Source: a virus (taxonomy: Duplodnaviria; Heunggongvirae; Uroviricota; Caudoviricetes). From it: a stretch of 64,000 nucleotides of DNA. A program made the position numbers and the translations under genes. The notes under the pieces were generated by a model. It made no database searches, was not told the DNA's origin, and was given only the letters and a program-made list of their open reading frames with translations. Location: the IMG/VR virus record IMGVR_UViG_3300025093_000001; one strand, given 5' to 3'. How positions within the stretch are numbered: the first letter of the stretch is position 1; each line of letters starts with the position of its first letter. Positions 9,616 to 58,751 of this stretch are shown here, one piece after another.

Positions 9616-10071
9616 TTACCACTTTACAAATTTAGCTAATCTTAGTGAATAATCCAAACCGTAGTCATGATAATTCACCATAAAATCTATTTTGAAGTGA
9701 GGATGTCCATAATATCCGTATGCTAAGCCTATTGGTGTCTCATAATCTGAGCCAATGTAGCCTCTAAACCATAAGGGATACAGGGTTAAGGTCTGCCCGT
9801 ATGGAGATAGCTTCTTGTCAAGCTTGTATTGAATACCTGCCTGAAACCAAAATTGGTCTTGCAATGTTGTGGATGCACCATAGGAGACCCTATAGTTAAA
9901 TCCAAACAGATTGTTGTGGAAAAATCCTTGATTGTAAGTGTAATGCAGCATCTGTTCTCCTCCAGAGTTAAATACTACATCAACACTTGCGTCTTGGTAT
10001 TCATGGACCCTTACTTGGGCAGAACACATGATACCCACTGCCAACAGCAGCGAAAGAAATAGTGTTTTCAT
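9616..10071 (-). CDS. Secreted small outer-membrane beta-barrel-like protein
   Basis: Signal peptide MKTLFLSLLLAVGIMCSAQ; alternating aromatic/hydrophilic pattern; C-terminal aromatic residue (..AKFVKW), as in 8-strand OMPs. Confidence 0.5.
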   Translation of the reverse strand: MKTLFLSLLLAVGIMCSAQVRVHEYQDASVDVVFNSGGEQMLHYTYNQGFFHNNLFGFNYRVSYGASTTLQDQFWFQAGIQYKLDKKLSPYGQTLTLYPLWFRGYIGSDYETPIGLAYGYYGHPHFKIDFMVNYHDYGLDYSLRLAKFVKW

Positions 10072-10177: not shown

Positions 10178-10708
10178 CTATTCATATCTGAAAATCTCAT
10201 CTTTTTCTGTGGGAATAGACATATATTCCTGGTTTTCTGGAATATCTACTCCATAAATTTCACTCATTAATCTTCTCGTAGCCTCACTTTTATTAACAAT
10301 TCCCTTTGCTAATTCGGAATTGTACTTGTCTTTTAAGGCTTGAGAGAATTTAGAGTACTGACCTTTTCTAAATCTTTCTACATCATTGTTATATCTAGAT
10401 GCTACTTTGAATATATGGACAACTGTAGAGTCATCAACATCATAGTAGTCTGTCCAATTGTCAAAACTCCTAAGAGTTTCTTCAATAGATGCAAAATCTT
10501 CAAGAGAATCTACATTAAACACACAATAAAGATAGTAAGCTTCTGGTTCATGATACCACTTCCAATCGAAATGGACTAAACCAAAATCATCTAGGTATAC
10601 ATTTTCCAGCCCTAGTTGTTGTAATCCATTTAGTGAAAATTCTTTACCTTCTCCTGTAGAGATTATAGTAGGAGTTAAGAATTTAGAAGTTTTATTCCAT
10701 TCACTCAT
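10178..10708 (-). CDS. Hypothetical protein
   Basis: ORF with stop/start overlap to the upstream gene. Confidence 0.45.
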   Translation of the reverse strand: MSEWNKTSKFLTPTIISTGEGKEFSLNGLQQLGLENVYLDDFGLVHFDWKWYHEPEAYYLYCVFNVDSLEDFASIEETLRSFDNWTDYYDVDDSTVVHIFKVASRYNNDVERFRKGQYSKFSQALKDKYNSELAKGIVNKSEATRRLMSEIYGVDIPENQEYMSIPTEKDEIFRYE

Positions 10709-11664
10709 ATTGTGACTTGTCCCTTTTGTTCGTACTCAAACTTAGGATAATCCCAAACGTTTTCTTTTAAATGCCATGCCAAAGTATCAAGGCAATTCAT
10801 CCATCCTTCATAATATACACCATCTATTTCGCCACCAAAAGCTCCTACTTTGAGAGCTTCATCTGATAGTGTGTATATCATAGGAGCACCTATACGAGTA
10901 GTGCTTTCTACGAGAATCTTAAATGGTAAAATTGTATAGTCTGGATATGCAAACATCAATGCTGCAGTATAGAAAGCAGCTTGGAAGTCATACCTAAATT
11001 TATAAATAGCTTCATGAAACTTACTGGTATAACCAGCAGTAGTCTTCAAATCCCATGGTTGAATTGTTTTGTTCTCTTCATCAATTTCAATGAAATCAAG
11101 AAGAGACTTTAATTCAATATCATAGTCTTTGAATCTCCAATAGATAGCTACTTGTGTTTCTGTAGCTGATGGTATCACATGACTTGTAAAAGGATGATTC
11201 ATGATAGACTCACAAATCTCATGTGCCTTAGCTAAAGTTTCACTATCTATAACAGTTTTTCCTCGGGCTTTGACTTTATTCTCAAAGTATTGTGCATTGT
11301 CTATTACAAACTTAAGCCTAGTAGCTCTTTTATTCTTTAGTCTGTATCCTTGAGCTTCAATAATGTTATGTAGAAGCTCCTCTTCAATGACTCCTTGATA
11401 GTCAAAATTTCCCAGTACTTCACAGTGTTCGTAAAATTCATCCCATATAGACTTTATTGCTGTAGGTATACTGTTATCCTCTAGCTCAATAAATCTTTCC
11501 TCTAGCTCATTAGGAGTTAGAAGAATACAATCCACGAGGGAGCCCAGCGTTAAAGCTGAACTCTCCCCAAATGGATTATATAGTTTATATGACATTGGAT
11601 GATTACAAATTTTCTTGAGTCTAGTCTGTGAAACTGACTCACTTTCGTAATACTCCTTACTCAT
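10705..11664 (-). CDS. PD-(D/E)XK family nuclease (RecB/Cas4-like fold)
   Basis: WDLKTT (D-x-K) followed by a QxxxY motif (FQAAFY), characteristic of the PDDEXK_1 / RecB-family nuclease core. Confidence 0.55.
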   Translation of the reverse strand: MSKEYYESESVSQTRLKKICNHPMSYKLYNPFGESSALTLGSLVDCILLTPNELEERFIELEDNSIPTAIKSIWDEFYEHCEVLGNFDYQGVIEEELLHNIIEAQGYRLKNKRATRLKFVIDNAQYFENKVKARGKTVIDSETLAKAHEICESIMNHPFTSHVIPSATETQVAIYWRFKDYDIELKSLLDFIEIDEENKTIQPWDLKTTAGYTSKFHEAIYKFRYDFQAAFYTAALMFAYPDYTILPFKILVESTTRIGAPMIYTLSDEALKVGAFGGEIDGVYYEGWMNCLDTLAWHLKENVWDYPKFEYEQKGQVTI

Positions 11665-13528
11665 CGTTTATATCAAAGATGCCAAAATCATCTTGATTTA
11701 CTTGATTTTGATTAACCCTTTGTTGCTCTCTTAGTTCTGCATTCTCTCTTTCCACACGGTGAAAAGCCTCTTCTGCATTTATACGAATTGCCTCCATATT
11801 TACTGCAAATCTTTGTGGTCTCATTCTCTGAGGAGCTTCCCTTTCAGGTTCAACCTCAGGCGGTAGATTTTGGAGAAGTTTAATTCTCTTATCTAATTGA
11901 GCATCACTAAGATTATCAATTTCATATGGAGCATTAGACCTTTCAATTTCAGCATAGATATTATCACCGATGAAATCCTTATGGTATTGCTGACGTTTGT
12001 CATTGATAAAATCAAGGATTTTGTTAGCAAAAGCCTCAGGATATGCAGAACTGATTACATCTTCCAATGTAATTTTCTCTCTATTGTCCCTTACAATATC
12101 TCCGTGGTCTTCTACATAAGATAGAATAGCATTGGAAATGAGTAAGTAATTCAGAGCTGTGTTAAAATCCATTGGAGAATTGAAGATTCTGAACTCTACA
12201 GTCTCTTGAGGAAGGAAGGCATACGGTAAGAAATTAACCCAGAAGTATCTGGAATTAAGATTCCATTTGTTTGCCCCCTCTTTAGGAGAATGTCTGTTAT
12301 CCCAATTGAAACGTTGATTCTCCTTAGAACCTTCAGTCAAGAACTCAAAGAATTTGTTAAACTCTACTTTCATTCTTGCCTTGTTTGTATCAATACGGTC
12401 AAGATTCAGATTCAAGCTTTTCAAAGATTGACAATGGTCTTTTGTCTGTCTCTTACTTGTCCAATATCTATAATCTTTTTTGTATGGTGGAATCATATCA
12501 AACATTTCCTCCTGCAGTCTGTAGCACAGTTTGTACAGTGTGAGAGCATTGAGTTTACTTCTTTCAAATCCACCGAAGTGAACGTGGAAAGAGCACATCT
12601 CATTTACTCTACAGAGATTCTGTATCTCAGTATAGAATTTTTTCATAACTGCAAGACCTTTAGCTCCTGAAAATGGAATTGAGGTATACTCAATACCACC
12701 ATCCAGAGAGCCATCTCTTAGTGGAAGAAATCCTAACTTAGCTAAAGTATCTTCTGGGATTTGTCCAGACACTGTTTCAATCTCTACACCAAATGTACGA
12801 CCTTGTAAATGTTCTGCAACCTCTAAAAGAGTTTTACTTGGTGTCAAAGTGTTAGCTGCATAACCTGCCTCAGCCTTCTTCCTGTAATATTCAGAAGTTG
12901 AAACATTATACTGTAACGCTTTTGTGTAGATGTTTCCTTGGTTGCGAGTAGGTTTTCTGAATAACCTTCTTACAATTTTTGGAAGTGCTGGAACATAGAA
13001 TCCATTGCGAGGTTCCTTGATAGCTCCAGATTTTTCGACTGCTTCACTTGCTATAGGAAGAACATAAATTTCAATTCTTCTACCATAACAATCACACATC
13101 TTCTGAACCTGTTCATCATGGAACATTGGTTTTATAACCTTTGCAATGTAAACACTATTCATTCCAGTAGTATTACCAAAGTTTCCACCATAATACAAAT
13201 CAAAAATATTATCTGCAGCATTCGTTGGTATTTTACTACTATATGCAATCACATATTTACCATCCACAAAGTCTTTGATGTAAGGTCTGGCAGCAGTATC
13301 CTGAAAGAATTTAAATGTACCAGTTGCCTCATCAAAGATTATATTAGGATGATTTACTCTGTACCATTGACCATCTGACATCAGAACACATCCTTTGTCA
13401 ATGATATAGTATGCTCCCTTGATAAACCTAGTTTCAGACCTTGGAACCTTTTGTAGATTCATATTTTGGTCATAGGCTTCCACTTTTGTGAGCTTACTTA
13501 TCTTCTTTGAATTTGTTTCCTTCGACAT
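11657..13528 (-). CDS. Glutamine-synthetase-like amidoligase (Amidoligase_2 / GCS2-type COOH-NH2 ligase) with C-terminal extension
   Basis: GVEIETVSG...SFHVHFGG segment, matching the Glu-rich strand and HxH motif of GS-like carboxylate-amine ligases. Confidence 0.55.
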   Translation of the reverse strand: MSKETNSKKISKLTKVEAYDQNMNLQKVPRSETRFIKGAYYIIDKGCVLMSDGQWYRVNHPNIIFDEATGTFKFFQDTAARPYIKDFVDGKYVIAYSSKIPTNAADNIFDLYYGGNFGNTTGMNSVYIAKVIKPMFHDEQVQKMCDCYGRRIEIYVLPIASEAVEKSGAIKEPRNGFYVPALPKIVRRLFRKPTRNQGNIYTKALQYNVSTSEYYRKKAEAGYAANTLTPSKTLLEVAEHLQGRTFGVEIETVSGQIPEDTLAKLGFLPLRDGSLDGGIEYTSIPFSGAKGLAVMKKFYTEIQNLCRVNEMCSFHVHFGGFERSKLNALTLYKLCYRLQEEMFDMIPPYKKDYRYWTSKRQTKDHCQSLKSLNLNLDRIDTNKARMKVEFNKFFEFLTEGSKENQRFNWDNRHSPKEGANKWNLNSRYFWVNFLPYAFLPQETVEFRIFNSPMDFNTALNYLLISNAILSYVEDHGDIVRDNREKITLEDVISSAYPEAFANKILDFINDKRQQYHKDFIGDNIYAEIERSNAPYEIDNLSDAQLDKRIKLLQNLPPEVEPEREAPQRMRPQRFAVNMEAIRINAEEAFHRVERENAELREQQRVNQNQVNQDDFGIFDINDE

Positions 13529-15536
13529 GTTCTAAAATTTCATATGACATGATAATTAACTTAAGTTGGTCTGTTTCTGTATCAGTAAATACATACCCAC
13601 AGTCATCTCCAATCTCTTGAACTTTCTTGGCTATATAATACGCTGCTTCTAAAAGCTTTGTACTAATCTCATAACCTACTTGGTCAGGTTCAAATAGACC
13701 CATACCTTCTGCATAAGTTTGAACTAGCTGTTCAGCTTGGTCAAGACTTTGTGCAATGGCAATTTCGTCCATATCTGTCCAATCAGAGTTTGTAGTCTCT
13801 GTGAACTTATCCCAACTCTCATTGATAAGGGCATCAACACGCTCCTGAGCTGCTTTCTCCTCTTCTGCACTAAGCTCTGAAGACTGTTGGAGCATACCAT
13901 CCGTAGAGTTCTGCCCAGAAGTCGTAGGTGTCTTCTTCTCTACGGGCTTCTCCTTTTTTGGCTCTAACAATTCTGAAAAAATGTCTTTGAAATCTAAGGA
14001 AGCCTTAGTTTTTTTATTCAAATCCATTCCTTTTAAGAAAGTTTCAAAGAAAGGAGTTCTACTGTCCACAGGTTGTACATCTACCAAGTATCCATTATTG
14101 TACTCAAAGGTGTATAAACTAAATTCTGGCTTAAACTTAGCACTGAAAGTTAGTTTACCGTCCCAAGCAGGATAAGAAGATACTCTATAGTTATCATTAG
14201 TTGATGCTACAAAGGTGATGGGATATATCGAACATTTAGATAAATCACCTAAACGTGTACTATTCTCATCTAACATTGCATTAGCATCATTCATGGCCTC
14301 AAAGTCCTTACACATAATACCTTTTGCAAAGTAATATAGTGAAGCATTGAGTTTATCCTTCTTCTTATTCTTATTGTACTTTTTGCGGAAATCCCTCAAA
14401 CCTTTATTGGCTACAGCTTGAGTCATATACCATCCAAGTTGTTCACCATCTTCGCGAAGAAGCCATATACCATTGATTAAATGACCATTACGGAAGTAAC
14501 GTCCGCAACGGTAATAAATCTTTCCGCCTACGATATGGCTGCCCACGAAATATTCGTTTGGGGTTAAAAGAAGTTGATGAGCCTTGGCTGAACCTGTGAA
14601 AGTGCTGATAGGAATTTGACGTGCTCCTGAATGAGAAACTCTGGCATTAGTTCTCGTAGAAGGAGTTGTTGTTACAGCTGTACTGTTACGAGCATATGCT
14701 GTACTTAATTCCTTGCCTCTTTTTACTTTAAGCTCATTGATAACTTCACCACCTTCAAAAGTAAGGATAGTGTTGTTAGGAACTTCTTTGATGTCTTTAA
14801 GTCCAGCGAACTCAAATGGTTCTTTCATAGAAGATAGATATACACCAGTAACCTTACCTCTACTATTCACATACTGAACATAGTACAGCGGTCTTTCTTC
14901 ATCATCACCCGCTGCCCCCTTAAAGGCATAGAGCCTATCAGGATTATTCGAGTTATAGAAGATAAGAGCTGCAGCTCCTTTATACTCAGACAGAACCTTG
15001 TAGTTCTTATCATGATATAAGCGGTAAAGGAGAGCTTGTGAATCCATATTGACTGTTACCTCTTCAGGAATTTCAATATCCTTTGTAAGGTCTCTCCAGT
15101 CTATGAGACTTCCATTATGTGCTCCAATAAAGTTGTATCCAACCTCTTCATCTGGAACTTCTGGGTCATCAGTATCACACCCAAACCCAAAAGGGTGGGC
15201 ATTCTCTTTAGTGTGTGCACCTACAGTTGCTTTCCTTGTGTGAAGGATTACATTGAAGGTCTTTGTCATCTTAGGAAAGTCAAAGTCTTTGACAAAATTC
15301 CTAAAACGTGCAATACTTCCTACTCCTACATCAATGAAATTGTTGACAGCAATTCCGCAAGAGTGTATACCTCTTTCTTCATTGTATTGTCCAATAACTT
15401 TGAGAAGGAGTTCGTTTGGCTTTACTTTACCATTATATGCGCCTAATCCGCAACTTAACACATTACTCTTACCCTTAAATATTAGGAGTGAAATAAAATT
15501 CACTAAGGCAAAAGCAAAGATAAATAAACTTAACAT
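13494..15536 (-). CDS. Class II (Ntn-type) glutamine amidotransferase domain protein with an about 28-aa hydrophobic N-terminal propeptide and a long C-terminal extension
   Basis: ..LSCGLGAY.. places the nucleophile Cys at position 29, followed by GATase-II-like spacing (HSCGIAV, HTRKATVG, NGSL); 680 aa. Confidence 0.55.
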   Translation of the reverse strand: MLSLFIFAFALVNFISLLIFKGKSNVLSCGLGAYNGKVKPNELLLKVIGQYNEERGIHSCGIAVNNFIDVGVGSIARFRNFVKDFDFPKMTKTFNVILHTRKATVGAHTKENAHPFGFGCDTDDPEVPDEEVGYNFIGAHNGSLIDWRDLTKDIEIPEEVTVNMDSQALLYRLYHDKNYKVLSEYKGAAALIFYNSNNPDRLYAFKGAAGDDEERPLYYVQYVNSRGKVTGVYLSSMKEPFEFAGLKDIKEVPNNTILTFEGGEVINELKVKRGKELSTAYARNSTAVTTTPSTRTNARVSHSGARQIPISTFTGSAKAHQLLLTPNEYFVGSHIVGGKIYYRCGRYFRNGHLINGIWLLREDGEQLGWYMTQAVANKGLRDFRKKYNKNKKKDKLNASLYYFAKGIMCKDFEAMNDANAMLDENSTRLGDLSKCSIYPITFVASTNDNYRVSSYPAWDGKLTFSAKFKPEFSLYTFEYNNGYLVDVQPVDSRTPFFETFLKGMDLNKKTKASLDFKDIFSELLEPKKEKPVEKKTPTTSGQNSTDGMLQQSSELSAEEEKAAQERVDALINESWDKFTETTNSDWTDMDEIAIAQSLDQAEQLVQTYAEGMGLFEPDQVGYEISTKLLEAAYYIAKKVQEIGDDCGYVFTDTETDQLKLIIMSYEILEHVEGNKFKEDK

Positions 15537-16366
15537 TATGATTTGTGATTGAGTCCGTATTTATGATTCATGAGTTGCGGTAAGTGTTCGAGATACATCA
15601 AAGTAGTCTTCTCACCAAATGAAGGAGCTGAATTAGTCTCCAAGATTTGAAAGTCTCCTTTAGTGTTAACTCTAACATCAACTGCTCCGACATCAAGCCC
15701 TACCGCAGATAAAGCTTTCTGTGATTGTGCTACAATTTGGCACCAAGTAGTTGGTTTATTGAATTGTTCAGAATCCACATTAGTGAATTTTACGAAATTC
15801 CCATCCTCATCCAACTCTTGTTCTTTCTCTGTAGCCCAGATACAGTTGTTTGAATTGAAATACCATCTCTCTTCAGCATCAGATTTTCTAAGCTTACGGC
15901 AAGCATAGAAGCATCCAAGTGCTGAAACATGTAAACGATACTCTCTAGCTCCTGAAAAGTATTGCTCTAAGTAGTATCCTTGAGTATTACCATTAAAGAA
16001 TTGTAGTAATTGCTCTTCATTCTCAATGAACTGCATACCCCGTCCCCTACTACCAAGAACTTTCTTAGCTACTAATGGATATTTTTCAATCTCAGCAGTA
16101 TTAAAAGGGTCTGTAATGGTGTACATCTTTGGGCTTTGTATCTTACCATTCTTGAAAGCTTCTTTCATCTTCAGTTTATTTGAAGATACTTTAACAGCTT
16201 CAACGGTATTGATTTCGTGAGGAACATCTACCTGCGTAGTGCTGCCAAGACGAAATACAGACTTTCCATCAAATCTTAAGGAAGGATTCTTTCTTAAAAC
16301 TTCATGTGATGGGTGTCTTGAACGTATTCTAACGTATTTAAATTTAGGCGTCTTCATAGTTTCCAC
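15536..16366 (-). CDS. ATP-grasp ligase (RimK-like)
   Basis: PLVAKKVLGSRGRGM glycine-rich ATP-binding loop and downstream YYLEQY...EYR motifs. Confidence 0.65.
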   Translation of the reverse strand: METMKTPKFKYVRIRSRHPSHEVLRKNPSLRFDGKSVFRLGSTTQVDVPHEINTVEAVKVSSNKLKMKEAFKNGKIQSPKMYTITDPFNTAEIEKYPLVAKKVLGSRGRGMQFIENEEQLLQFFNGNTQGYYLEQYFSGAREYRLHVSALGCFYACRKLRKSDAEERWYFNSNNCIWATEKEQELDEDGNFVKFTNVDSEQFNKPTTWCQIVAQSQKALSAVGLDVGAVDVRVNTKGDFQILETNSAPSFGEKTTLMYLEHLPQLMNHKYGLNHKS

Positions 16367-16697
16367 TTTCTACAACAGGGAGACCTCTTTCTCCATCCAT
16401 AAAATACAATTCTGCAGTTGTTTCTTCTCCAGAATCAAGTATTACTTGTATGGGTCTTCTTTGATACCAATTTGGGTGTCCCTCTAACCCATCTACTCTT
16501 GGTACATCTTCTTCAGGAACATCGAATACTTCTACATGAATATTAGATGTAGGCTTATGTGATGATACAAAAGGTATCCCACTAGCATACATAGTATACT
16601 TCTCCTTTGTTTTTCCTGCGTCAACAAACTTTGAGTCTGCTAATAAGCGATTGTTTCCCCAACCTCTTCGCAGTGTTCCATATACAGCAATTCTCAT
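16344..16697 (-). CDS. Gamma-glutamyl cyclotransferase (GGCT/AIG2-like)
   Basis: N-terminal YGTLRRG motif and downstream ...LEGHPNWYQR, typical of the AIG2/GGCT fold. Confidence 0.7.
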   Translation of the reverse strand: MRIAVYGTLRRGWGNNRLLADSKFVDAGKTKEKYTMYASGIPFVSSHKPTSNIHVEVFDVPEEDVPRVDGLEGHPNWYQRRPIQVILDSGEETTAELYFMDGERGLPVVESGNYEDA

Positions 16698-17449
16698 GCG
16701 TAATCTGCAATTAATTCCCTAGCCAATTCTGGCTGTTCAAATGCCTGAAAGACTTCATTGTCATCAGGTAAAAATATTCCTTCATTGTGGTAGTCTTCGA
16801 CAATCCTCTCCACACTATCCCATACCCACTCAATCTTGTCGTTACTTTGTAACCATTCACATGAAGGGGTGCGATACTCAAAACCATAAGAGGTAGTTCT
16901 ATAAGTGCCTGGAGCACCATAGATATCTCTCCTAGAGAGTTCTGTACGAGGTTCAGCAGCAGCCAAAGGCAATCCAATATGCAGGTCAAAGAGCTTAATC
17001 ATCTTTTTGAGATTATTAATCTTCATTCCTACATGAATATGTCCACCTGCAAATCTCACGTTTGGTGGGAAGTCATCGGGACATAACAGCATAATGTTGT
17101 ACATGTTCTCTTGTGGAGCACATCCAAACATATTAGCTGTTGGGAATTGCAATGCTTTATCACTGAACACTGCCGAGTTGTTGAACCTGATTTCTACCTC
17201 TTCTGGTAGTTTTTGTTGGATAAATTCAATAGCTTGGTTCAAATTAGCTACAAAATCCAACTTTGTACTTGCTGGCGGGATGTTAAATTCAACCATTAGA
17301 TTATCACATAATACGGCATAGCCTGGTGCTAAATCTTCTGGCTCATCCTTAGTGCCATGAAAATACAACTCGGAAGGAACATACATCTCCAGGTCTGTAT
17401 TATACAGAAATGCTTCTGGGTCTGCTCCTAATGTGAATATATTATTCAT
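16694..17449 (-). CDS. Second COOH-NH2 ligase (phiEco32-like / GCS2-like GS-fold ligase)
   Basis: GADPE N-terminal motif and FAGGHIHVG HxH motif. Confidence 0.5.
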   Translation of the reverse strand: MNNIFTLGADPEAFLYNTDLEMYVPSELYFHGTKDEPEDLAPGYAVLCDNLMVEFNIPPASTKLDFVANLNQAIEFIQQKLPEEVEIRFNNSAVFSDKALQFPTANMFGCAPQENMYNIMLLCPDDFPPNVRFAGGHIHVGMKINNLKKMIKLFDLHIGLPLAAAEPRTELSRRDIYGAPGTYRTTSYGFEYRTPSCEWLQSNDKIEWVWDSVERIVEDYHNEGIFLPDDNEVFQAFEQPELARELIADYA

Positions 17450-18407
17450 AAATGTTCTTAATGAAATTTAAAAGTTCAGTTTGCCCGTAGTCTTTAACAT
17501 AGTCTGACGGGTCTTTTGGAAATCCAGTTGGAAAACTAATGGTCTCCCAACCATATTTATCACTTAGTTTGTCTGAATACTTAATACCTGCTTTATCATT
17601 ATCAAACCAAAGAATGATTTTACCAAATCTCTGATTCAATAATGCTGCAGCATTTTCAGATACAGGAGATGATTCAGACCTAACTGCTACAGCAGCATAG
17701 CCTAACTCATGTAAAGTCATCACATCTTTCCTAGACTTAGTGACAATCAGAAGATTGCCCTTATCAGGAAGTTGTGACCACCCTTCTAATACGCCACCTG
17801 ACATATTAGTTCTCCACTTATAACGTTTATCTGCCAATGGTCTGTACAGTTTGAACTTATCTTGTTCTTTGTATCTATACATTGGGTCATAAGCTTTGTA
17901 TTCATGGTAAAAGTCTCCATTAATCCAAGCGCGATAGACAGCCCTGACATTGTAATTAACTAATGTCTCTAGGCTAATCCCAAATTGAGCCCAATAATCC
18001 AAATCAGCCCGTTGAAAGGGTTGATTCACTACTTTGATTACTGTCTCTTTCTCTACTTGCGTAGGTTTGTTCAGGACAAGTTTTTTTCTTGTCTGAGGCG
18101 TTACAATTTCTTCATCTAATGATTCAATTTTATGTAAGCCTAGACCAAAGTCCTTAGAGATGATAGTTAATACCTCATAGAATGATATATCAAAGTATTC
18201 TTGAATGAACCTAAAACAATCCATATGTGTAGGGTCTCCCCCAAAATCTACAAACATCAATCTGTCATTGATATATGTAAAATAACAATCTGGATTTTTA
18301 TCAATTCTAGTAGGATTACAATACCTTGTCTGGAGTGCTATCTCATCAGGAAAGTATCTGGCATAGATATCCTCCTGGGTTATTCGCTTAAGTATTTGGT
18401 CTTTCAT
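17442..18407 (-). CDS. DNA primase (DnaG-like TOPRIM domain)
   Basis: TOPRIM signature (E...VRSESS...WFDNDKAG) in the C-terminal half; N-terminal Cys/His cluster. Confidence 0.65.
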   Translation of the reverse strand: MKDQILKRITQEDIYARYFPDEIALQTRYCNPTRIDKNPDCYFTYINDRLMFVDFGGDPTHMDCFRFIQEYFDISFYEVLTIISKDFGLGLHKIESLDEEIVTPQTRKKLVLNKPTQVEKETVIKVVNQPFQRADLDYWAQFGISLETLVNYNVRAVYRAWINGDFYHEYKAYDPMYRYKEQDKFKLYRPLADKRYKWRTNMSGGVLEGWSQLPDKGNLLIVTKSRKDVMTLHELGYAAVAVRSESSPVSENAAALLNQRFGKIILWFDNDKAGIKYSDKLSDKYGWETISFPTGFPKDPSDYVKDYGQTELLNFIKNIYE

Positions 18408-18460
18408 ACAAAAAAAGGGACTCCTTTTGAGAGTCCCTGATTAAGTACTTACTGTTCAGA

Positions 18461-19237: not shown

Positions 19238-19778
19238 CTTCCATATGGTCGAACAATTCTTCTGTGCAGTACAGACCTAATAGAAAATCTGCCCCAACTC
19301 TGTTAGCACCCTTTGATAAACAACGAGCCCATAACATGAACTTTGGCATCTTTTTCCAATTGTCCTTGGTGGTAAGTCCCATTCCTGTAGCCTCTTTCCA
19401 AGTAAAAGAACAAGTCTCTTCCTTGTCATTGCGATAGAAAACAATAGTTGTTCTCCTATCTACAGGTTTGTCATCACCTTCTTTGGGATACTCACTCGTA
19501 GTCCCATCACTGTAAACATACACTCCATCTTCAGTAGTGACAAATTCTACTCCTCCTTTACGTAATAATGCACCAATACCCTTAGCTGATAAACTCAGCT
19601 TTCCTTGGATAGGAATGATATAATGGAATGACTGCATTGCAGCGAATCCTAATTCCTTTCCCATTTGAGCAATTGTAAATGCATCTTCTACACTTTTCAC
19701 ATGACCAGGTAGTTTCTTGCTATCAATCAACGTTTGCAAGAAGTCCTTATGGTCTTCCATCTTCACTAATTCTGTCAT
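19185..19778 (-). CDS. RecT-like single-strand annealing protein
   Basis: C-terminal KKMPKFMLWARCLSKGANRVGADFLLGLYCTEEL resembles the RecT family conserved region. Confidence 0.4.
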   Translation of the reverse strand: MTELVKMEDHKDFLQTLIDSKKLPGHVKSVEDAFTIAQMGKELGFAAMQSFHYIIPIQGKLSLSAKGIGALLRKGGVEFVTTEDGVYVYSDGTTSEYPKEGDDKPVDRRTTIVFYRNDKEETCSFTWKEATGMGLTTKDNWKKMPKFMLWARCLSKGANRVGADFLLGLYCTEELFDHMEGVQAVRTEEGEIIEIKD

Positions 19779-20893
19779 TAACTTTTTTCTCTGTTATAAA
19801 AATTTTCGATTTCACTAGAATTGGGTGGTGGTAACTCCATGAACTCATTTACTTTTCCATCGAAAAATAAACCAGCCTTGAGGTTTGGTCTACCCAATCT
19901 GTTTTTTAACACTTTAAGAGCCCTATAATTATCTCCTAATATAGAAGTATCATACTTTAGGTGTCTCTTAATTTCGTACCTATCAGGTGCGTACAGTGCC
20001 AATACTACAAAAGCATCACGCTGAGTTAACTTGTTGTCAGCTAGTCCATCTAAAGATGGTTCGAGTTTAGCTTCTACGCTGTTACCTCTGTAAAATTCCT
20101 GCTTCTCTTTCTCAGCAGCTTGCTGTTGTACATTAACAACTGTATATCCAAAATTCTTGGATATTTGTTTTCTGCAATAGTCTGCAGACCATTTGCTAAT
20201 AGTCTGGTGTTTGTTCATCATATGACCAGTTTCCCTATCTTTCTCCTCTTGTAGGAGACTAACATGGTCTGTAATTACAATTACAAACTCATTTGGGTCA
20301 TCAGGTTCATAGTAGTCATATATCTTATGAACTTTACCACCGTACTCTACATCTCTAAAGTGATGCGTACCATTTCTATCAGCATATTCTCTCACATGTT
20401 TATACAAACCTGTTGGATTATACACCGTATCTATAACCTCAACATACTTTTCAAAGTCTTCAAAGTACTCTTGGCACTCTTCAATCTTATCAATAATGTT
20501 TTGGTCGAGTCTGTCAGTGAATGATTGTAACTCAATTACACTAACATGGATGTTATAAACCATAGCAAGTCTGTTACTAATGAGACCTAACATAAACTCT
20601 TCTTTACTTTCTTCTAAAGCGAAGTACATAATCTTGAGTTTAACATCAGATTTACATTCCTTAACAAACATGTAAGGTTCCAATACGAACAATCTCTTGG
20701 TAAACTGGGTTTTCCCAATACCACTAGATGCCGTGACTATATAGTATAAGCCTTTAACAATTCCTGGAACATGACTAGCTAATTTTGGAAAGCTAGCAAA
20801 TGGGATATTGTTAATAAGACCCTTGTCCAAATTTTCTGCAGATTGCCTAATTTTACTTAACGTATCCTTAAACATACTACATTGTTTGTTCAA
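19778..20893 (-). CDS. Replicative DNA helicase (DnaB/SF4-like RecA-fold)
   Basis: Walker A SGIGKTQF and Walker B VIVITDHVSLL; adjacent to the primase. Confidence 0.6.
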   Translation of the reverse strand: MNKQCSMFKDTLSKIRQSAENLDKGLINNIPFASFPKLASHVPGIVKGLYYIVTASSGIGKTQFTKRLFVLEPYMFVKECKSDVKLKIMYFALEESKEEFMLGLISNRLAMVYNIHVSVIELQSFTDRLDQNIIDKIEECQEYFEDFEKYVEVIDTVYNPTGLYKHVREYADRNGTHHFRDVEYGGKVHKIYDYYEPDDPNEFVIVITDHVSLLQEEKDRETGHMMNKHQTISKWSADYCRKQISKNFGYTVVNVQQQAAEKEKQEFYRGNSVEAKLEPSLDGLADNKLTQRDAFVVLALYAPDRYEIKRHLKYDTSILGDNYRALKVLKNRLGRPNLKAGLFFDGKVNEFMELPPPNSSEIENFYNREKS

Positions 20894-21569: not shown

Positions 21570-22309
21570 ATGATTTTGGCTTGTGTTGTTATTTTATGGT
21601 CACTAGACCATCCATCAGTTGATTGCTTATACCTCTCATCATTAGCTTCTCTAAGAAATTCCTCTACTGTAAGACCAGTTTTAATTGATTTTGCAGTAAC
21701 ATTAGAGTGATTAAATTCCTCAGTAGTGAATACTCGCTTTTTGTGTAAACAATTATCCCATAGAGTTAGTAAAAAACTCATAGGGTCATGCTTTTCAACA
21801 TCGAATTTAAACAATCCTTTAAAAAACTTAGCATTCTGAAACAAGTGTCTACGACTCTTTCCAGTATCTCTAGGCATATACCAGAGACTTCGAAAGAAAT
21901 TCAATAAAATCAAGTTATGTTTATAACTAAGTAAAAGCTTGTACTTAATCCATACTGTTGACTTTTGAGTGATTATTCCTATTTGATTGTTATAAAGCGT
22001 ATCAAGATGTTTTCCCCAGTTATCGTTAAGTTTATACTCAGGCTTAAGTTTGTTAAAATCTGGTTCAATTATCTCACATGGTGTGATTAAATTGATGATT
22101 TTAACTAATTGTTCAGTTATCTCTGGAGTCTCTCCCCCCTTAGTATGAAAAAGGATTTCCTTCCTATCATCACAATGTCTTTTTATAAAAGAAAAACACG
22201 CTTGTGTTGCAGGATTTGAATCAAACTTTCCCTTTTCATTTAATACACCACCTTCTACTCTAAAATTCCCAGCTTTGCCCATACGAATCTTATTAAAGAA
22301 TTTCATCAA
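21560..22309 (-). CDS. Hypothetical protein
   Basis: ORF. Confidence 0.45.
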   Translation of the reverse strand: MMKFFNKIRMGKAGNFRVEGGVLNEKGKFDSNPATQACFSFIKRHCDDRKEILFHTKGGETPEITEQLVKIINLITPCEIIEPDFNKLKPEYKLNDNWGKHLDTLYNNQIGIITQKSTVWIKYKLLLSYKHNLILLNFFRSLWYMPRDTGKSRRHLFQNAKFFKGLFKFDVEKHDPMSFLLTLWDNCLHKKRVFTTEEFNHSNVTAKSIKTGLTVEEFLREANDERYKQSTDGWSSDHKITTQAKIICH

Positions 22310-22949
22310 ATAGATACTTGTTGATGATGTAACCCATTACTCCCATGACAATTCCATCACTGAGTTGTCTTTCTGGATGTCCTTGAATAGCCAAAGAGTT
22401 ACTTTTTGGATAGTAAACTATCTCAGGCTCATTTTGAACAGTATAGGTTTCTCCATCACCACGCTCATACAAGGAGCTACGGCTTGGTTCTGCCCAAGCA
22501 ACTAATTCATATTCATCCTTTGGTAGATTATATGGATACATCATTTGGTGATGTGTAGAAGTCATGGCAATTTTAACGCCATTATTCTTCTTATTGAATC
22601 TAACTGAGTGCTTTCCAACCATTGCGTGACTGGACACATTTTGCACTAGTTTTCCACCATTCATGACTGTAAGAAACTGCGAACCTCTACAAATACCCAA
22701 CATAGGTATTTTCATAGCTGATGCCATAGCAAAGACTCTTGCCTCTAATTCATCACGTTTTGGGTTTGCATATGTTGTTGGGTGAAACTTTTCACCATAG
22801 TACTTAGGTGACACATCAGCACCACCAGTAAACAGAACTAAATCTGCCTCAGTTAGTACTTTAGTATCTCTAGGCTTAATATCTAAGCCATTTAAGACAC
22901 CTATATAGCTTAAAGCTCCTCCTACAACATAAACGTTCAGTTGTTCCAC
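22293..22949 (-). CDS. Class I glutamine amidotransferase-like hydrolase (peptidase C26 / PuuD-like gamma-glutamyl hydrolase)
   Basis: GICRGSQ nucleophile elbow (Cys) with downstream His...E catalytic positions. Confidence 0.65.
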   Translation of the reverse strand: MEQLNVYVVGGALSYIGVLNGLDIKPRDTKVLTEADLVLFTGGADVSPKYYGEKFHPTTYANPKRDELEARVFAMASAMKIPMLGICRGSQFLTVMNGGKLVQNVSSHAMVGKHSVRFNKKNNGVKIAMTSTHHQMMYPYNLPKDEYELVAWAEPSRSSLYERGDGETYTVQNEPEIVYYPKSNSLAIQGHPERQLSDGIVMGVMGYIINKYLFDEIL

Positions 22950-27754: not shown

Positions 27755-28023
27755 CTTACTACAGTTATGAGGTGAAGCATTTTAGTTCGGAATTTATGTA
27801 GTACATTGACTTCATAATCCAAATTAAGCTCCTTTCTCAGTTCCTTGTTAGAGGTTTTCCAAATAGGCACAATTACATGGCTTTTCTTTCTACCTCTTGT
27901 GATTTTTCTGTTGTTGCCTGTAGGCATCTTATATCTACGAAGCCTCCGCGAGGGAAACTCTTGGCGTAGAATCTGTCCTGGCCTCAGGTGCAGAATGTCT
28001 TCATGTGTTACGGTCCTGTTCAT
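27745..28023 (-). CDS. Small basic protein
   Basis: ORF. Confidence 0.3.
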   Translation of the reverse strand: MNRTVTHEDILHLRPGQILRQEFPSRRLRRYKMPTGNNRKITRGRKKSHVIVPIWKTSNKELRKELNLDYEVNVLHKFRTKMLHLITVVRWR

Positions 28024-28591
28024 TGAGATTGTAAATATGAACTCCTAAATCATTCCCTGTTCTAGGGTTATTGAACGTATTGACGAGTTCCCATTCATTA
28101 CGTTCCAAAATTTTTTGTTGTGGTGTATTACTGAGGATAGTGGTACACATTAAACATCCAAATCCATTAGCTCTCGCTATGTCTTTACGAAGTTCATTAA
28201 GAATAGTACCAATACCTTTACCTCTGTACTTTGGGTCTACAGTAGACCCTGTAGAGACAACTATTCCACAACATCCGGGCATTTGTCTCATGGTAAATTC
28301 TGAAATTACTTTACCACTAAGAGTGAGTAATCTGAAAGTCTGCCTACTTGAGTAATCATACCCATAGTTTAACTTAAAGGTATAACCATTCCCGTAATCT
28401 CTGACAACAGCCCAGCCGTGCCCAAGAATATCAGTTAGTTGTTGTTCATAAGGTTTTAAGACATCTTGTCTTTTACTTGTAACCTGTTTGACAACTCTTT
28501 TGAGCTTTCTAAGCCCTCGATTTAAACTAGCCATTTCATAAGTTTTTAGTGGACCTGAGGGGAGTCGAACCCCCGTCCAGCGTAACATCAA
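28001..28591 (-). CDS. GNAT family N-acyltransferase
   Basis: RGKGIGTILNEL (R/Q-x-x-G-x-G acyl-CoA binding motif) after a beta strand. Confidence 0.55.
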   Translation of the reverse strand: MMLRWTGVRLPSGPLKTYEMASLNRGLRKLKRVVKQVTSKRQDVLKPYEQQLTDILGHGWAVVRDYGNGYTFKLNYGYDYSSRQTFRLLTLSGKVISEFTMRQMPGCCGIVVSTGSTVDPKYRGKGIGTILNELRKDIARANGFGCLMCTTILSNTPQQKILERNEWELVNTFNNPRTGNDLGVHIYNLNEQDRNT

Positions 28592-30290: not shown

Positions 30291-31007
30291 TCAATACACA
30301 TTTGTATTGGCATCATGGTGGTCTACTTCGACTAATTCTTTATTACGAAGTAGTTCCATAATATGAGAATAGCTAATAGGACCATAATATCCAAATTGGT
30401 TGAAAATAGTATCAACTCCTACATCCATAGCTTTACGTTTGTAATAGTCTGGTGTAGTGTGATACATAGAATTGTGGCAATGACCATGAAGATGTATCCA
30501 TCCTTTCATATGACCATTCCACACAAAGAGTGGATAGTGACAAAGTACGAAATTATACTTCTTAGCTTTTTGTTGACGACCATTAACAATTGGTTGAGCC
30601 TCTACAATTGTCAATTCAAGTAATTCATGAACTGATTTGAAAAGATGTTTATAGTGAGCTCTAATCCAATGGTCATGGTTTCCAAATACTAAATGCACAT
30701 TTTTACATAGAATTCGGTCAAGAAAATGAGGAATCTGAGTCTTATCACCAAAAGCAAAGTCACCTAAATGAATAAGAGTGTCATTGGGTTGAACTCTTTT
30801 ATTGATTTCCTCTAGAAGAAGAGTATTCATATACTCTAGATTTTCGTTCATATCACGCATACCACCCTTTTTCCACTTACTGATACCTTTTACAATATTA
30901 GTATGGTTAAAATGAGTATCTGATGTAAACCAGATATTACCATCATTTGTATTTAATCGCATGAGGATTGTTTTGTAGCTTGTGATACATATCCAATTGT
31001 CTTTCAA
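30291..31007 (-). CDS. Calcineurin-like metallophosphoesterase (candidate polynucleotide 3'-phosphatase)
   Basis: SDTHFNH, GDFAFGD, GNHDHW and HGHCH motifs. Confidence 0.7.
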   Translation of the reverse strand: MKDNWICITSYKTILMRLNTNDGNIWFTSDTHFNHTNIVKGISKWKKGGMRDMNENLEYMNTLLLEEINKRVQPNDTLIHLGDFAFGDKTQIPHFLDRILCKNVHLVFGNHDHWIRAHYKHLFKSVHELLELTIVEAQPIVNGRQQKAKKYNFVLCHYPLFVWNGHMKGWIHLHGHCHNSMYHTTPDYYKRKAMDVGVDTIFNQFGYYGPISYSHIMELLRNKELVEVDHHDANTNVY

Positions 31008-57505: not shown

Positions 57506-57567
57506 CTATACATCCAAAAACTTTAAACAAAAAAAATTTGTAAATATAAATAATAAAACTTATAATT

Positions 57568-58734: not shown

Positions 58735-58751
58735 TAAATTAACAAACAAGA

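What the first reader, a model, noticed from the sequence alone, without database searches (positions are those of the whole stretch)
11657..17449. Five-gene amide/peptide-bond ligase cassette (amidoligase, Ntn-GATase II, ATP-grasp, GGCT, second COOH-NH2 ligase) inside the replication module
Five adjacent minus-strand genes overlap by a few nt and so look co-translated. They encode a GS-like amidoligase (GVEIE...SFHVHFGG), a class II Ntn glutamine amidotransferase, an ATP-grasp ligase (PLVAKKVLGSRGRGM), a gamma-glutamyl cyclotransferase (YGTLRRG) and a phiEco32/GCS2-like ligase (GADPE...GGHIHVG). Two independent ATP-dependent carboxylate-amine ligase folds, an ammonia/amide-handling GATase and a gamma-glutamyl-cleaving enzyme are together the toolkit for building and trimming gamma-glutamyl or peptide-like conjugates. 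Such phage cassettes have been predicted computationally, but no product or target has been determined. Candidate roles are peptide tagging of a phage or host protein, synthesis of a small-molecule signal, or modification of a nucleotide or polyamine. Placement between the primase and nuclease suggests early or middle expression.
Basis: partly seen in the sequence, partly recalled or inferred. Interest (0 to 1): 0.9.

Follow-up and report, generated by a model that had tools for sequence, protein, structure and literature searches.

The report
Phage amide-ligase and glutamine-amidase gene cassette
A crAss-like phage carries a compact set of enzymes that form and cut glutamine- or glutamate-type amide bonds; the set occurs in hundreds of unrelated phages and was predicted in 2009, but what it makes or modifies is still unknown.

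Summary
Five overlapping minus-strand genes at 11657-17449 encode a GS-fold Amidoligase_2, a class-II Ntn glutamine amidotransferase, a RimK-like ATP-grasp ligase, a GGACT gamma-glutamyl cyclotransferase and a phiEco32-type COOH-NH2 ligase. All keep their catalytic residues.

The window is a roughly 102 kb crAss-like phage. The cassette lies between primase and a PD-(D/E)XK nuclease. The isolate Cellulophaga phage phi14:2 and the human-gut phage cr108_1 have it at the same position after the primase, with a uracil-DNA glycosylase as the next gene.

In 60 IMG/VR loci with full flanks that hold the COOH-NH2 ligase, 58 have the GATase, 57 the amidoligase, 51 the ATP-grasp, but only 22 the GGACT. 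A sixth enzyme, a Peptidase_C26 class-I amidotransferase, co-occurs in 51 of 60. In the window it lies 5 kb upstream (22293-22949).

The GATase and amidoligase are adjacent in 76 loci in either order, which suggests a two-subunit enzyme. The ligase family is almost confined to phages.

The most likely function is an early-expressed, glutamine-fuelled pathway of successive amide ligations that builds and trims a gamma-glutamyl or peptide-type conjugate. The acceptor is unknown.

This is a new member of a known, computationally predicted kind. Interest is moderate.

The parts
16694..17449 (-). phiEco32-type COOH-NH2 ligase (PF14395; GCS2/GS-superfamily carboxylate-amine ligase), 251 aa
   Evidence: Pfam 55.4 bits (cut-off 25) and PHROG 3815 E=1e-43. 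Invariant in 43 homologues: D10 P11 E12 D49 E54 C110 R132 H137 H139 D155 R173 E191 R193. No solved-structure relative by sequence or by profile.
16344..16697 (-). GGACT/AIG2-like gamma-glutamyl(amine) cyclotransferase, 117 aa
   Evidence: Pfam GGACT 79 bits. The YGxL motif (Y6 G7 L9) and Glu72 are conserved in 34 homologues. Present in only 22 of 60 fully flanked loci.
15536..16366 (-). RimK-like ATP-grasp ligase, 273-276 aa
   Evidence: PHROG 2599 E=8e-25 and NCBIfam rimK_fam 2.9e-9. Profile A5 against the PDB: alpha-L-glutamate ligases 7qyr 2e-14, RimK 5zct/4iwx 2e-12, cyanophycin synthetase 2e-12. K64, E142, R144, K158, D230, E243 and N245 are conserved.
13494..15536 (-). Class-II (Ntn) glutamine amidotransferase or amidohydrolase domain (residues 29-270), plus a lineage-specific C-terminal region (mixed alpha/beta domain 339-489 and helical bundle 557-675); 680 aa
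15453..15536 (-). 28-codon hydrophobic leader (MLSLFIFAFALVNFISLLIFKGKSNVLS) in front of the catalytic Cys29 of the GATase
   Evidence: No in-frame start codon lies next to Cys29. Leaders of 26-29 aa with Leu at -2 occur in 12 of 79 IMG/VR GATase ORFs examined and in about half of the closest relatives; the others start Met-Cys. Modelled as a helix, residues 2-19.
11657..13528 (-). Amidoligase_2 (glutamine-synthetase fold) catalytic domain (about residues 240-520), with an N-terminal beta-rich domain (15-112) and a C-terminal coiled tail; 623 aa
22293..22949 (-). Peptidase_C26 / class-I glutamine amidotransferase (gamma-glutamyl hydrolase-like), 218 aa; probable sixth member, detached from the cassette in this genome
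   Evidence: Pfam Peptidase_C26 76.8 bits. Cys87 (GICRG), His191 and Glu193 (HPE) are intact. Present within 8 kb of the COOH-NH2 ligase in 51 of 60 loci and directly adjacent in 27. Adjacent in L008, L009 and cr108_1.
17442..18407 (-). Toprim DNA primase; upstream neighbour, overlaps the cassette by 8 nt
   Evidence: Pfam Toprim_2 and PHROG 12622 E=3.5e-47. A primase is the upstream neighbour of the cassette in L007, L008, phi14:2 and cr108_1.
10705..11664 (-). DUF3799 / PD-(D/E)XK exonuclease-VIII-like nuclease; downstream neighbour, overlaps by 8 nt
   Evidence: Pfam DUF3799 48.3 bits and PHROG 412 E=1.6e-39.
18416..18438 (-). Terminator-like hairpin with a T-run just upstream of the primase; a possible 5' boundary of the transcription unit that holds the cassette
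   Evidence: 9-bp stem with 5 GC pairs followed by TTTTTTT. This is a consensus match only; function was not tested.

Best explanation
The cassette is a virus-specific, early-expressed enzyme module. It carries out successive ATP-dependent carboxylate-amine ligations coupled to hydrolysis of glutamine or gamma-glutamyl amides, and so builds and then trims a gamma-glutamyl- or peptide-type amide conjugate in the cytoplasm of the infected cell.

It appears to work as three units.
(1) The Ntn GATase and the GS-fold Amidoligase_2 form a two-subunit enzyme. The amidoligase activates a carboxylate as an acyl-phosphate. The GATase either delivers ammonia from glutamine (glutamine-dependent amidation) or reverses the bond (a gamma-glutamyl-amide ligase/hydrolase pair, as in GmaS/NMG synthase or EgtA/EgtC).
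(2) The Peptidase_C26 enzyme and the COOH-NH2 ligase form a second pair of the same logic, as in PuuA/PuuD.
(3) The RimK-like ATP-grasp adds an amino acid, most likely glutamate, to a carboxylate. Where GGACT is present it removes a gamma-glutamyl group from an amine as 5-oxoproline, as in BtrJ/BtrG.

Shown here: the folds, the intact active sites, the tight conserved linkage, the restriction to viruses, and the position in the module that is early in phi14:2. Inferred: the pairing logic, the order of steps, and above all the acceptor. My leading guess for the acceptor is a small amine-bearing metabolite such as a polyamine or a short peptide, rather than a protein or DNA.

For: Co-occurrence in 60 fully flanked IMG/VR loci: GATase 58, amidoligase 57, ATP-grasp 51, C26 51, GGACT 22, all on one strand. 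The GATase and amidoligase are adjacent in 76 loci, in both gene orders (41 and 35), with a median gap of 1 nt. C26 and COOH-NH2 ligase are adjacent in 27 loci and ATP-grasp and GGACT in 12. Jumbo-phage-sized contigs keep only the two GATase+ligase pairs, which argues that these pairs are the core.

The nearest characterised ATP-grasp relatives are RimK-type alpha-L-glutamate ligases. The best NCBIfam matches of C26 include gamma-glutamyl-GABA hydrolase and gamma-glutamyl-CDP-amidate hydrolase.

Early timing: the phi14:2 cassette g037-g041 sits in the replicative module, which is the early class, and SU10 proteomics agrees. No tag or carrier protein is encoded nearby in the window. The published comparative-genomics view of linked ATP-grasp and COOH-NH2 ligases is successive peptide ligations in metabolite, cell-wall or cofactor synthesis (PMC4431377).
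Against: No substrate, product or phenotype is known for any member (literature searches). The two chemical readings of each GATase-ligase pair, ammonia donor versus gamma-glutamyl hydrolase, cannot be separated by sequence. The GATase lacks any recognisable synthase or acceptor domain, and physical coupling to the amidoligase is inferred from gene adjacency only. RimK, PafA/Dop and GGACT precedents act on proteins, so a protein target is not excluded. The preference for a small molecule rests mainly on negative evidence. Only two of the six structures were modelled.
Confidence: 0.55

Rival explanations
1. Protein or peptide tagging. The ligases attach glutamate(s) or a short peptide to a host or phage protein, in the manner of RimK polyglutamylation of S6 or of Pup ligation by PafA/Dop. 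The amidases and GGACT edit or remove the tag.
Confidence: 0.2
2. Modification of cell-envelope precursors. This would be glutamine-dependent amidation or amino-acid addition on peptidoglycan stem-peptide or other envelope precursors, for example to block superinfection or to tune lysis. This is the suggestion attributed to Iyer et al. 2009 for phiEco32.
For: The suggestion is cited in PMC10580990. The hydrophobic, TM-like leader on the GATase would place the proenzyme at the inner membrane. The ATP-grasp gives weak hits to D-Ala-D-Ala ligase and pseudomurein ligase models. Known precedents pair a GATase with a ligase on lipid II (MurT/GatD; established knowledge).
Against: The leader is absent from about 80% of homologues (63 of 79 start Met-Cys). 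None of the other five proteins has a signal or membrane segment. Hosts span Pseudomonas, Enterobacteriaceae, Vibrio, Rhizobium, Bacteroidota and cyanobacteria, which have different envelope chemistries. No Mur-ligase or transglycosylase partner is present.
Confidence: 0.12
3. Nucleotide or DNA hypermodification. The enzymes would append or amidate an amino-acid-like group on a base or nucleotide, to protect phage DNA from host nucleases.
For: The cassette sits inside the replication module and next to a primase in very different phages: the window, L007, L008, phi14:2, cr108_1, TL and Slicky01. Two unrelated primase families are among the commonest neighbours, in 34 and 19 loci. UDG and thymidylate-synthase-like genes are close by in phi14:2 and L008.
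Against: The scanned window ORFs include no base hydroxymethylase, 5-hmdU kinase, aGPT-Pplase or glycosyltransferase. No nucleic-acid-binding domain was detected in either modelled protein. Known thymidine hypermodification pathways use other enzyme classes (established knowledge). Adjacency to a primase can simply reflect shared early timing.
Confidence: 0.08
4. The genes are unrelated auxiliary metabolic genes that happen to be neighbours, for example generic boosters of glutamine or glutathione metabolism taken from the host.
For: Several genome papers list them simply as AMGs of possible bacterial origin.
Against: Co-occurrence and adjacency are conserved across phage groups that share little else. 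The COOH-NH2 ligase family is nearly absent from cellular genomes. Only 59 loci were found in 185,579 species representatives, almost all on MAG contigs, many of them in the size range of phage genomes, and 24 of the 30 long loci carry four or more of the cassette families.
Confidence: 0.03

Closest known systems
The phage amidoligase cassette predicted by Iyer, Abhiman, Burroughs & Aravind 2009 (Mol Biosyst 5:1636; phiEco32-type COOH-NH2 ligase, Amidoligase_2, GAT-II, ATP-grasp, AIG2). It is annotated in Cellulophaga phage phi14:2 (g037-g041), Pseudomonas phages of the LUZ24/TL group, Salmonella phage 7-11/SE131 and phiEco32-like phages.
   Same: The five protein families are the same and lie on one strand, in the early or replication region and next to the primase. 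The gene content matches phi14:2 and the order is nearly the same. The function is unknown in every case.
   Different: Sequences are only 28-57% identical to any relative found. In this genome the C26 gene is detached by 5 kb. The amidoligase carries a fused N-terminal beta-rich domain, whereas many other phages have a short amidoligase preceded by a separate gene of about 208 aa in which no homology to that domain was detected. The GATase carries a hydrophobic leader. The Iyer paper itself could not be read here; its content is taken from citing papers and from my own knowledge.
Bacterial gamma-glutamylation pathways for amines: PuuA/PuuD (putrescine), GmaS with N-methylglutamate synthase (methylamine), and the aniline/naphthylamine GS-like ligase plus GATase-like hydrolase pairs
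   Different: The phage ligases belong to other families (PF12224, PF14395), not to GlnA/PuuA. No oxidase or dehydrogenase steps are encoded. The purpose is not catabolic. Similarity is at the level of fold and logic only.
BtrJ/BtrG of butirosin biosynthesis (an ATP-grasp gamma-glutamyl ligase and a gamma-glutamyl cyclotransferase that removes the protecting group)
   Same: An ATP-grasp ligase gene lies next to a GGCT/GGACT-fold gene: adjacent in the window, L007, L008, TL and phi14:2, and in 12 loci of the survey.
   Different: No acyl carrier protein or aminoglycoside genes are present. The phage ATP-grasp is closer to RimK. The comparison rests on established knowledge, not on a sequence test here.
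Pupylation (PafA ligase and Dop deamidase, both GS-fold) and RimK/LysX-type modification of a protein C-terminus
   Same: Two GS-fold enzymes occur in one system, together with a RimK-like ATP-grasp.
   Different: The window encodes no Pup-like or LysW-like substrate protein. The GATase, C26 and GGACT enzymes have no counterpart in those systems.
Ergothioneine EgtA/EgtC (a GCS2-type gamma-glutamyl-cysteine ligase and a stand-alone class-II GATase-fold gamma-glutamyl amidohydrolase)
   Different: No EgtB, EgtD or EgtE homologues are present. The phage GATase has a large extra C-terminal region.

Membership tests
Amidoligase_2 (PF12224), glutamine-synthetase-fold carboxylate-amine ligases | Profile match above the curated threshold | tested here: met
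   29.4 bits against a cut-off of 22, residues 307-464; PHROG 2443 'amidoligase' E=2.6e-15.
Amidoligase_2 (PF12224), glutamine-synthetase-fold carboxylate-amine ligases | GS/GCL-type fold with conserved metal- and phosphate-binding Glu/His/Arg | tested here: met
Class-II (Ntn) glutamine amidotransferases | Ntn fold with the Cys nucleophile, the Asn-Gly oxyanion hole, and the Arg/Asp that bind the glutamine backbone | tested here: met
Class-II (Ntn) glutamine amidotransferases | The catalytic Cys is the free N-terminal residue of the mature protein | not testable with these tools
   Cys29 follows a 28-aa leader with no start codon beside it. The leader would have to be removed, as the propeptide of B. 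subtilis PurF is. This needs N-terminal sequencing or intact mass measurement.
Class-II (Ntn) glutamine amidotransferases | A fused synthase or acceptor domain of a known type (PRTase, SIS, PP-loop, FMN) | tested here: not met
   Residues 330-680 have no Pfam, NCBIfam or PDB match beyond generic helical bundles. The protein therefore resembles stand-alone Ntn amidohydrolases such as EgtC, or is one subunit of a two-protein enzyme.
ATP-grasp, RimK-like alpha-L-glutamate ligases | ATP-grasp core with the conserved Lys, the Mg-binding Asp/Glu-x-Asn, and profile similarity to RimK | tested here: met
   K64 E142 K158 D230 E243 N245 are conserved in 75 homologues. Profile against the PDB: 7qyr 2e-14, 5zct and 4iwx 2e-12. 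Single-sequence Pfam hits are at or below cut-off.
ATP-grasp, RimK-like alpha-L-glutamate ligases | Glutamate as donor and a protein C-terminus as acceptor | not testable with these tools
   Needs an enzyme assay. NCBIfam scores are far below the equivalog cut-offs (36.7 against 143 for rimK_fam), so it should not be filed as RimK itself.
GGACT / AIG2-like gamma-glutamyl cyclotransferases (PF06094) | Profile match, the YGxL substrate-binding motif and the catalytic Glu | tested here: met
   79 bits against 22.8, covering the full length. Y6 G7 L9 and E72 are conserved (100% for E72) in 34 homologues.
Phage phiEco32-like COOH-NH2 ligase type 2 (PF14395) | Profile match and the conserved acidic/His/Arg active-site set | tested here: met
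   55.4 bits against 25 and PHROG 3815 E=1.4e-43. D10 E12 D49 E54 H137 H139 E191 R193 are invariant in 43-85 homologues. The fold itself was not modelled.
Peptidase_C26 / class-I glutamine amidotransferases | Profile match and the Cys-His-Glu triad | tested here: met
   76.8 bits against 20.5. Cys87 lies in GICRG; His191 and Glu193 lie in HPE.
The conserved phage amidoligase cassette (Iyer et al. 2009 type) | Co-directional linkage of COOH-NH2 ligase, Amidoligase_2, GAT-II and ATP-grasp (with or without AIG2) in phage genomes | tested here: met
   42 of the 60 fully flanked IMG/VR loci have C26, L, A, G and M, 15 of them also with GGACT. The same sets occur in TL, SE131, Slicky01, phi14:2 and cr108_1.
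Pupylation-like or LysW-like carrier/tag systems | A small tag or carrier protein with a conserved C-terminal Gln/Glu encoded in the locus | tested here: not met
   No small Zn-ribbon or acidic-tail ORF lies near the cassette in the window, L007, L008, phi14:2 or cr108_1. The Zn-ribbon family seen in 27 other loci has variable C-termini.
Thymidine/cytidine DNA hypermodification modules | A base hydroxymethylase or thymidylate-synthase homologue together with a kinase or pyrophosphorylase-transferase | tested here: not met
   None was found among the window ORFs scanned. Not every small ORF was scanned.

The most novel reading that the evidence does not exclude
The six enzymes form a pathway that exists only in viruses and makes a product with no cellular counterpart. 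Two glutaminase-plus-GS-fold-ligase pairs, a RimK-like ligase and a cyclotransferase would together convert a host amine or carboxylate (for example polyamines, or a gamma-glutamyl peptide or thiol) into a new amidated gamma-glutamyl conjugate. That conjugate would reprogramme the early infected cell or disarm a host response. In this lineage the pathway would be gated by a membrane-tethered zymogen form of the Ntn amidotransferase.
Probability: 0.25. Interest if true: 0.8.

Novelty: new member of a known kind. Interest (0 to 1): 0.45.

Why it matters
The cassette is one of the most widespread conserved enzyme sets of unknown function in tailed phages. More than 528 IMG/VR contigs hold the marker ligase. 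It occurs in crAss-like phages, including a human-gut one, in LUZ24-like Pseudomonas phages used in therapy studies, and in phiEco32-like coliphages. It costs about 6 kb of genome and is almost absent from cells.

Finding its product would reveal a new way in which phages rewire host nitrogen, glutamate or polyamine chemistry, or modify a target, early in infection.

This window does not open the question, which has stood since 2009. The survey made for it does sharpen the question in three ways:
- It adds the C26 amidase as a core member.
- It demotes the GGCT to an accessory.
- It points to two glutaminase-ligase pairs as the minimal core, and names a cultured crAss-like model (phi14:2 on Cellulophaga baltica) in which deletion and metabolomics are feasible.

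Tried and rejected
- Megablast of the cassette against 50,697 phage records found nothing. Single-protein pattern scans of IMG/VR also found no close relative. Relatives came only through alignments and protein searches.
- Single-sequence searches of the PDB were empty or spurious for the COOH-NH2 ligase, GATase and amidoligase. Profile searches were also empty for the COOH-NH2 ligase and amidoligase. The HLA hits for the ATP-grasp single sequence are noise.
- I tested whether the N-terminal domain of the amidoligase is the fused equivalent of the separate ~208-aa gene (TL gp16-like) found in other phages. Iterative HMMs found it only in fused form, so the idea is unsupported.
- I tested whether the C-terminal domain of the GATase occurs in other contexts. 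It found only 3 hits among 1.8 billion representatives.
- I considered a LysW-like carrier after finding a Zn-ribbon and acidic-tail family in 27 loci. I rejected it because the C-terminus is not conserved and the family is absent from the window and its close relatives. It has no Pfam match.
- A lipobox reading of the GATase leader was rejected. Position -1 is variable and often bulky, and Leu is fixed at -2.
- The sigma-70 promoter scan was uninformative: fewer sites than in shuffled sequence, and Bacteroidota and crAss early promoters differ from the consensus.
- The Iyer 2009 paper and the De Smet 2016 LUZ24 metabolomics paper were not held.
- The amidoligase alignment was too divergent for a genome-contig scan.

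Full report
**Observation**

- 11657-13528 (623 aa)
- 13494-15536 (680 aa)
- 15536-16366 (276 aa from a GTG; 273 aa from the ATG at 16357, the start that metagenome gene callers use)
- 16344-16697 (117 aa)
- 16694-17449 (251 aa)

Neighbouring genes overlap by 35, 1, 14-23 and 4 nt. The end genes overlap the flanking primase (17442-18407) and nuclease (10705-11664) by 8 nt each. All the quoted motifs are present in the translations.

Profile searches confirm each assignment:
- Amidoligase_2: 29.4 bits against a cut-off of 22.
- GATase_6: 31.5 against 27.
- GGACT: 79 against 22.8.
- COOH-NH2_lig: 55.4 against 25.
- ATP-grasp: marginal in Pfam, but E=8e-25 against PHROG 2599. As a family profile it scores 2e-14 against solved RimK-like alpha-L-glutamate ligases.

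**What the genome is**

The plus-strand half of the window encodes a terminase, a portal and a major head protein. The closest isolate matches are crAss-like phages: Flavobacterium phage FpV4 at 39.6%, Bacteroides crAss001-like phages and Cellulophaga phi14:2.

The identical genome occurs in metagenomes as a 102,410-bp contig. There is no nucleotide-level match among 50,697 deposited phage genomes. The window is therefore an uncultured member of Crassvirales or a close environmental relative. The cassette lies in its replication module, which also holds PolA, a DnaB-like helicase, the primase, the nuclease and ribonucleotide reductase.

**Are the enzymes intact?**

Alignments with 23-89 homologues each show conservation of the catalytic sets.
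- GATase: Cys29, Arg101, Asn141-Gly142 and Asp165, which are the nucleophile, the glutamine-backbone binders and the oxyanion hole.
- Amidoligase: Glu249, Glu251, Glu280, His315, His317, Glu445 and Arg447.
- COOH-NH2 ligase: Glu12, Glu54, His137, His139, Glu191 and Arg193.
- ATP-grasp: Lys64, Lys158, Asp230, Glu243 and Asn245.
- GGACT: the YGxL motif and Glu72.

The extra parts have no recognisable relatives. These are the N-terminal beta-rich domain and C-terminal coil of the amidoligase, and the GATase domain at 339-489 with its C-terminal helical bundle. The GATase C-domain is essentially confined to this lineage.

**Conserved linkage, and a sixth member**

The COOH-NH2 ligase was used as a marker. 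I built iterative HMMs for each family from the window proteins and annotated all loci.

Among the 60 loci with at least 6 kb on both sides of the ligase:

| Family | Loci with it (of 60) |
|---|---|
| GATase | 58 |
| Amidoligase | 57 |
| ATP-grasp | 51 |
| Peptidase_C26 (class-I amidotransferase) | 51 |
| GGACT | 22 |

All the genes lie on the ligase strand.

The C26 gene was not in the finding. In the window it lies at 22293-22949, with an intact Cys87/His191/Glu193 triad. In L008, L009, cr108_1 and many IMG/VR loci it directly abuts the COOH-NH2 ligase. The two are adjacent in 27 loci.

The GATase and amidoligase are adjacent in 76 loci, in both orders (41 and 35), with a median gap of 1 nt. 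That pattern is typical of subunits of one enzyme.

Contigs of jumbo-phage size keep only C26, the ligase, the GATase and the amidoligase. The minimal core therefore looks like two glutaminase-plus-GS-fold-ligase pairs. The ATP-grasp is a frequent third ligase and GGACT an accessory.

**Distribution**

Isolated phages carry the set in several groups:
- The Pseudomonas LUZ24/TL group: COOH.NH2 ligase, a hypothetical gene, amidoligase, GATase, ATP-grasp and GGCT, then primase/helicase one gene further on.
- Salmonella SE131/7-11.
- Pseudoalteromonas Slicky01.
- phiEco32-like coliphages, and PA11- and VPp1-like phages.
- Two members of Crassvirales. Cellulophaga phage phi14:2 has primase g036, GGCT g037, ATP-grasp g038, COOH.NH2 ligase g039, GATase g040, amidoligase g041 and UDG g042. 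The human-gut phage cr108_1 has primase, ATP-grasp, two hypothetical genes, C26, COOH.NH2 ligase, GATase, amidoligase and UDG.

A scan of one genome for each of 185,579 bacterial and archaeal species gave the opposite picture. It found only 59 loci, nearly all on MAG contigs, many of them in the size range of phage genomes. Of the 30 long loci, 24 carry four or more of the cassette families. The marker family is thus essentially viral.

**Timing**

In phi14:2 the whole replicative module is the early class and is transcribed by the virion-packaged RNA polymerase (bioRxiv 10.1101/2020.03.07.982082). The cassette is inside that module. SU10, a phiEco32-like phage, lists the ATP-grasp, GATase and YtfP-like proteins under 'early gene products' in its proteomics table (PMC4281155). 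Early expression of the window cassette is therefore inferred by homology, not shown. A terminator-like hairpin lies just upstream of the primase (18416-18438). It may mark the start of the unit.

**An unexpected detail**

Cys29 of the GATase is preceded by a 28-residue leader with a 19-residue hydrophobic stretch, and there is no start codon next to the Cys. The same kind of leader is found in about half of the closest homologues and in 12 of the 79 IMG/VR GATase ORFs examined. It is 26-29 aa long, has basic residues after the hydrophobic stretch and has Leu fixed at -2. The other homologues start Met-Cys.

An Ntn amidotransferase needs a free N-terminal Cys, so the leader must be cut off. 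It may act as a membrane-tethering or inhibitory propeptide. That reading is an inference.

**How it most likely works**

All three hydrolytic members act on the gamma-amide of glutamine or on gamma-glutamyl-X. All three ligases make amide bonds through acyl-phosphates.

Known systems with the same pairings are all ways to put a glutamyl or amide group on an amine or carboxylate and later take it off:
- PuuA/PuuD, a GS-like ligase with a C26 hydrolase.
- GmaS with the GATase-like subunit of N-methylglutamate synthase.
- EgtA/EgtC, a GCS2-type ligase with a stand-alone Ntn amidohydrolase.
- BtrJ/BtrG, an ATP-grasp with a gamma-glutamyl cyclotransferase.

These comparisons rest on established knowledge of those pathways, on fold-level matches and on model-level matches. 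They do not rest on orthology.

I therefore read the module as a glutamine-fuelled, multi-step amide-ligation pathway acting early in the cytoplasm. Sequence cannot decide whether the glutaminases supply ammonia to the ligases (amidation) or reverse gamma-glutamylation (a carrier or protection cycle).

The acceptor is unknown. I favour a small amine or peptide metabolite for three reasons. No tag or carrier protein is encoded nearby. No nucleic-acid-related domain or hypermodification enzyme was found. Only one protein, and only in some lineages, has any membrane feature. These reasons are mostly negative evidence, so the rivals keep appreciable weight.

**Comparison with what is known, and novelty**

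The cassette is the one described computationally by Iyer et al. 2009. Later papers cite it as possibly modifying the cell wall or making secondary metabolites (PMC10580990; PMC4431377). Ten full-text searches found no experimental product, target or phenotype up to mid-2026.

The window is a new, divergent member in an uncultured crAss-like phage, so it is a new member of a known kind. My analysis adds the following:
- The C26 enzyme as a core component.
- The low conservation of GGACT.
- The pair structure of the module.
- The virus-restricted distribution.
- The leader variant of the GATase.

Interest is moderate. The underlying question is open and worthwhile, and cultured models exist, but this locus by itself is not surprising to a specialist.

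Noticed in passing
window 22293-22949 (-): A Peptidase_C26 / class-I glutamine amidotransferase gene with an intact Cys-His-Glu triad. It lies outside the finding's coordinates but co-occurs with the cassette in 51 of 60 loci, and in many phages it directly abuts the COOH-NH2 ligase.
   Followed up: yes
window 15453-15536 (-): A 28-codon hydrophobic, TM-like leader precedes the catalytic Cys of the Ntn GATase. It is conserved in a subclade, with Leu fixed at -2 and no nearby start codon. This implies a propeptide, possibly a membrane-tethered zymogen.
   Followed up: partly
window 52954-60194 (+) and the whole window: The genome is crAss-like. Terminase, portal and major head match crAss-type PHROGs, and the head protein is 39.6% identical to that of Flavobacterium phage FpV4. 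The identical genome is a 102,410-bp metagenome contig (ENA ERZ27265261; also JGI 3300025057).
   Followed up: partly
window 34608-36086 and 36083-36991 (-): A Nampt/NAPRTase-like gene overlaps a Prs-like phosphoribosyltransferase gene, a pair resembling phage NAD+ salvage or reconstitution genes. Homologous pairs sit near the cassette in Slicky01 and SE131.
   Followed up: no
window 30943-31416 and 31808-33115 (-): An AAA_33/zeta-toxin-like kinase (polynucleotide-kinase-like) lies near an RNA ligase (PHROG 968). This may be an RNA or tRNA repair pair.
   Followed up: no
window 18416-18438 (-): A strong terminator-like hairpin (9-bp stem followed by T7) lies in the 53-nt gap just upstream of the primase start. 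It is a possible attenuator or boundary of the primase-cassette-nuclease unit.
   Followed up: no
window 9616-10071 (-): A 151-aa ORF with a Bacteroidota-style signal peptide (MKTLFLSLLLAVGIMCSAQ...) and an aromatic-rich, beta-strand-like sequence. It has no family match and could be a secreted or outer-membrane protein encoded among early genes.
   Followed up: no
window 28001-28591 (-): A GNAT acetyltransferase domain (Pfam E=3.9e-6) lies in the replication-side gene block. A third amidoligase-type fold in the same genome may or may not be related to the cassette.
   Followed up: no
L007 5628-7639 versus window 19778-20893: In the relative whose COOH-NH2 ligase is 56% identical, the DnaB-like helicase gene is split into 54-aa and 272-aa pieces by a GIY-YIG/NUMOD homing-endonuclease gene. 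The window gene is intact (371 aa).
   Followed up: no
L013, L016, L022 and 24 other IMG/VR loci (e.g. L013 15235-15468): A family of about 68 aa with an N-terminal Zn-ribbon (MRCLSCN...DLCNxCF) and an acidic disordered tail lies just downstream of the ATP-grasp in phages with the order ligase, ~208-aa gene, amidoligase, GATase, ATP-grasp. Its C-terminus is not conserved, and it is absent from the window.
   Followed up: partly
L003 6794-7363 (TL gp16) and 37 other loci: A conserved protein of about 208 aa with no known domain sits between the COOH-NH2 ligase and a short amidoligase. It is a possible further subunit, with no detectable homologue in the window.
   Followed up: partly
L031 10126-10773, L035 14175-14873, L063 11195-11857, L072 12138-12800: A second, short (215-232 aa) Ntn-like ORF matching the GATase profile follows the amidoligase in some phages. 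It begins Met-Cys-Ile-Ile in the two whose N-terminus was read (L031, L035).
   Followed up: no
L013 14776-15222 and 12 other loci: A family of about 106 aa next to the ATP-grasp gives a weak, sub-threshold match to the glycine-cleavage H protein (a lipoyl-carrier fold; E=0.006).
   Followed up: no
L092-L150 (GTDB species-representative genomes): The COOH-NH2 ligase family is almost absent from cellular genomes. Only 59 loci were found, nearly all on MAG contigs, many of them in the size range of phage genomes and probably mis-binned phage. They include bins labelled Saccharibacteria and other CPR groups.
   Followed up: partly
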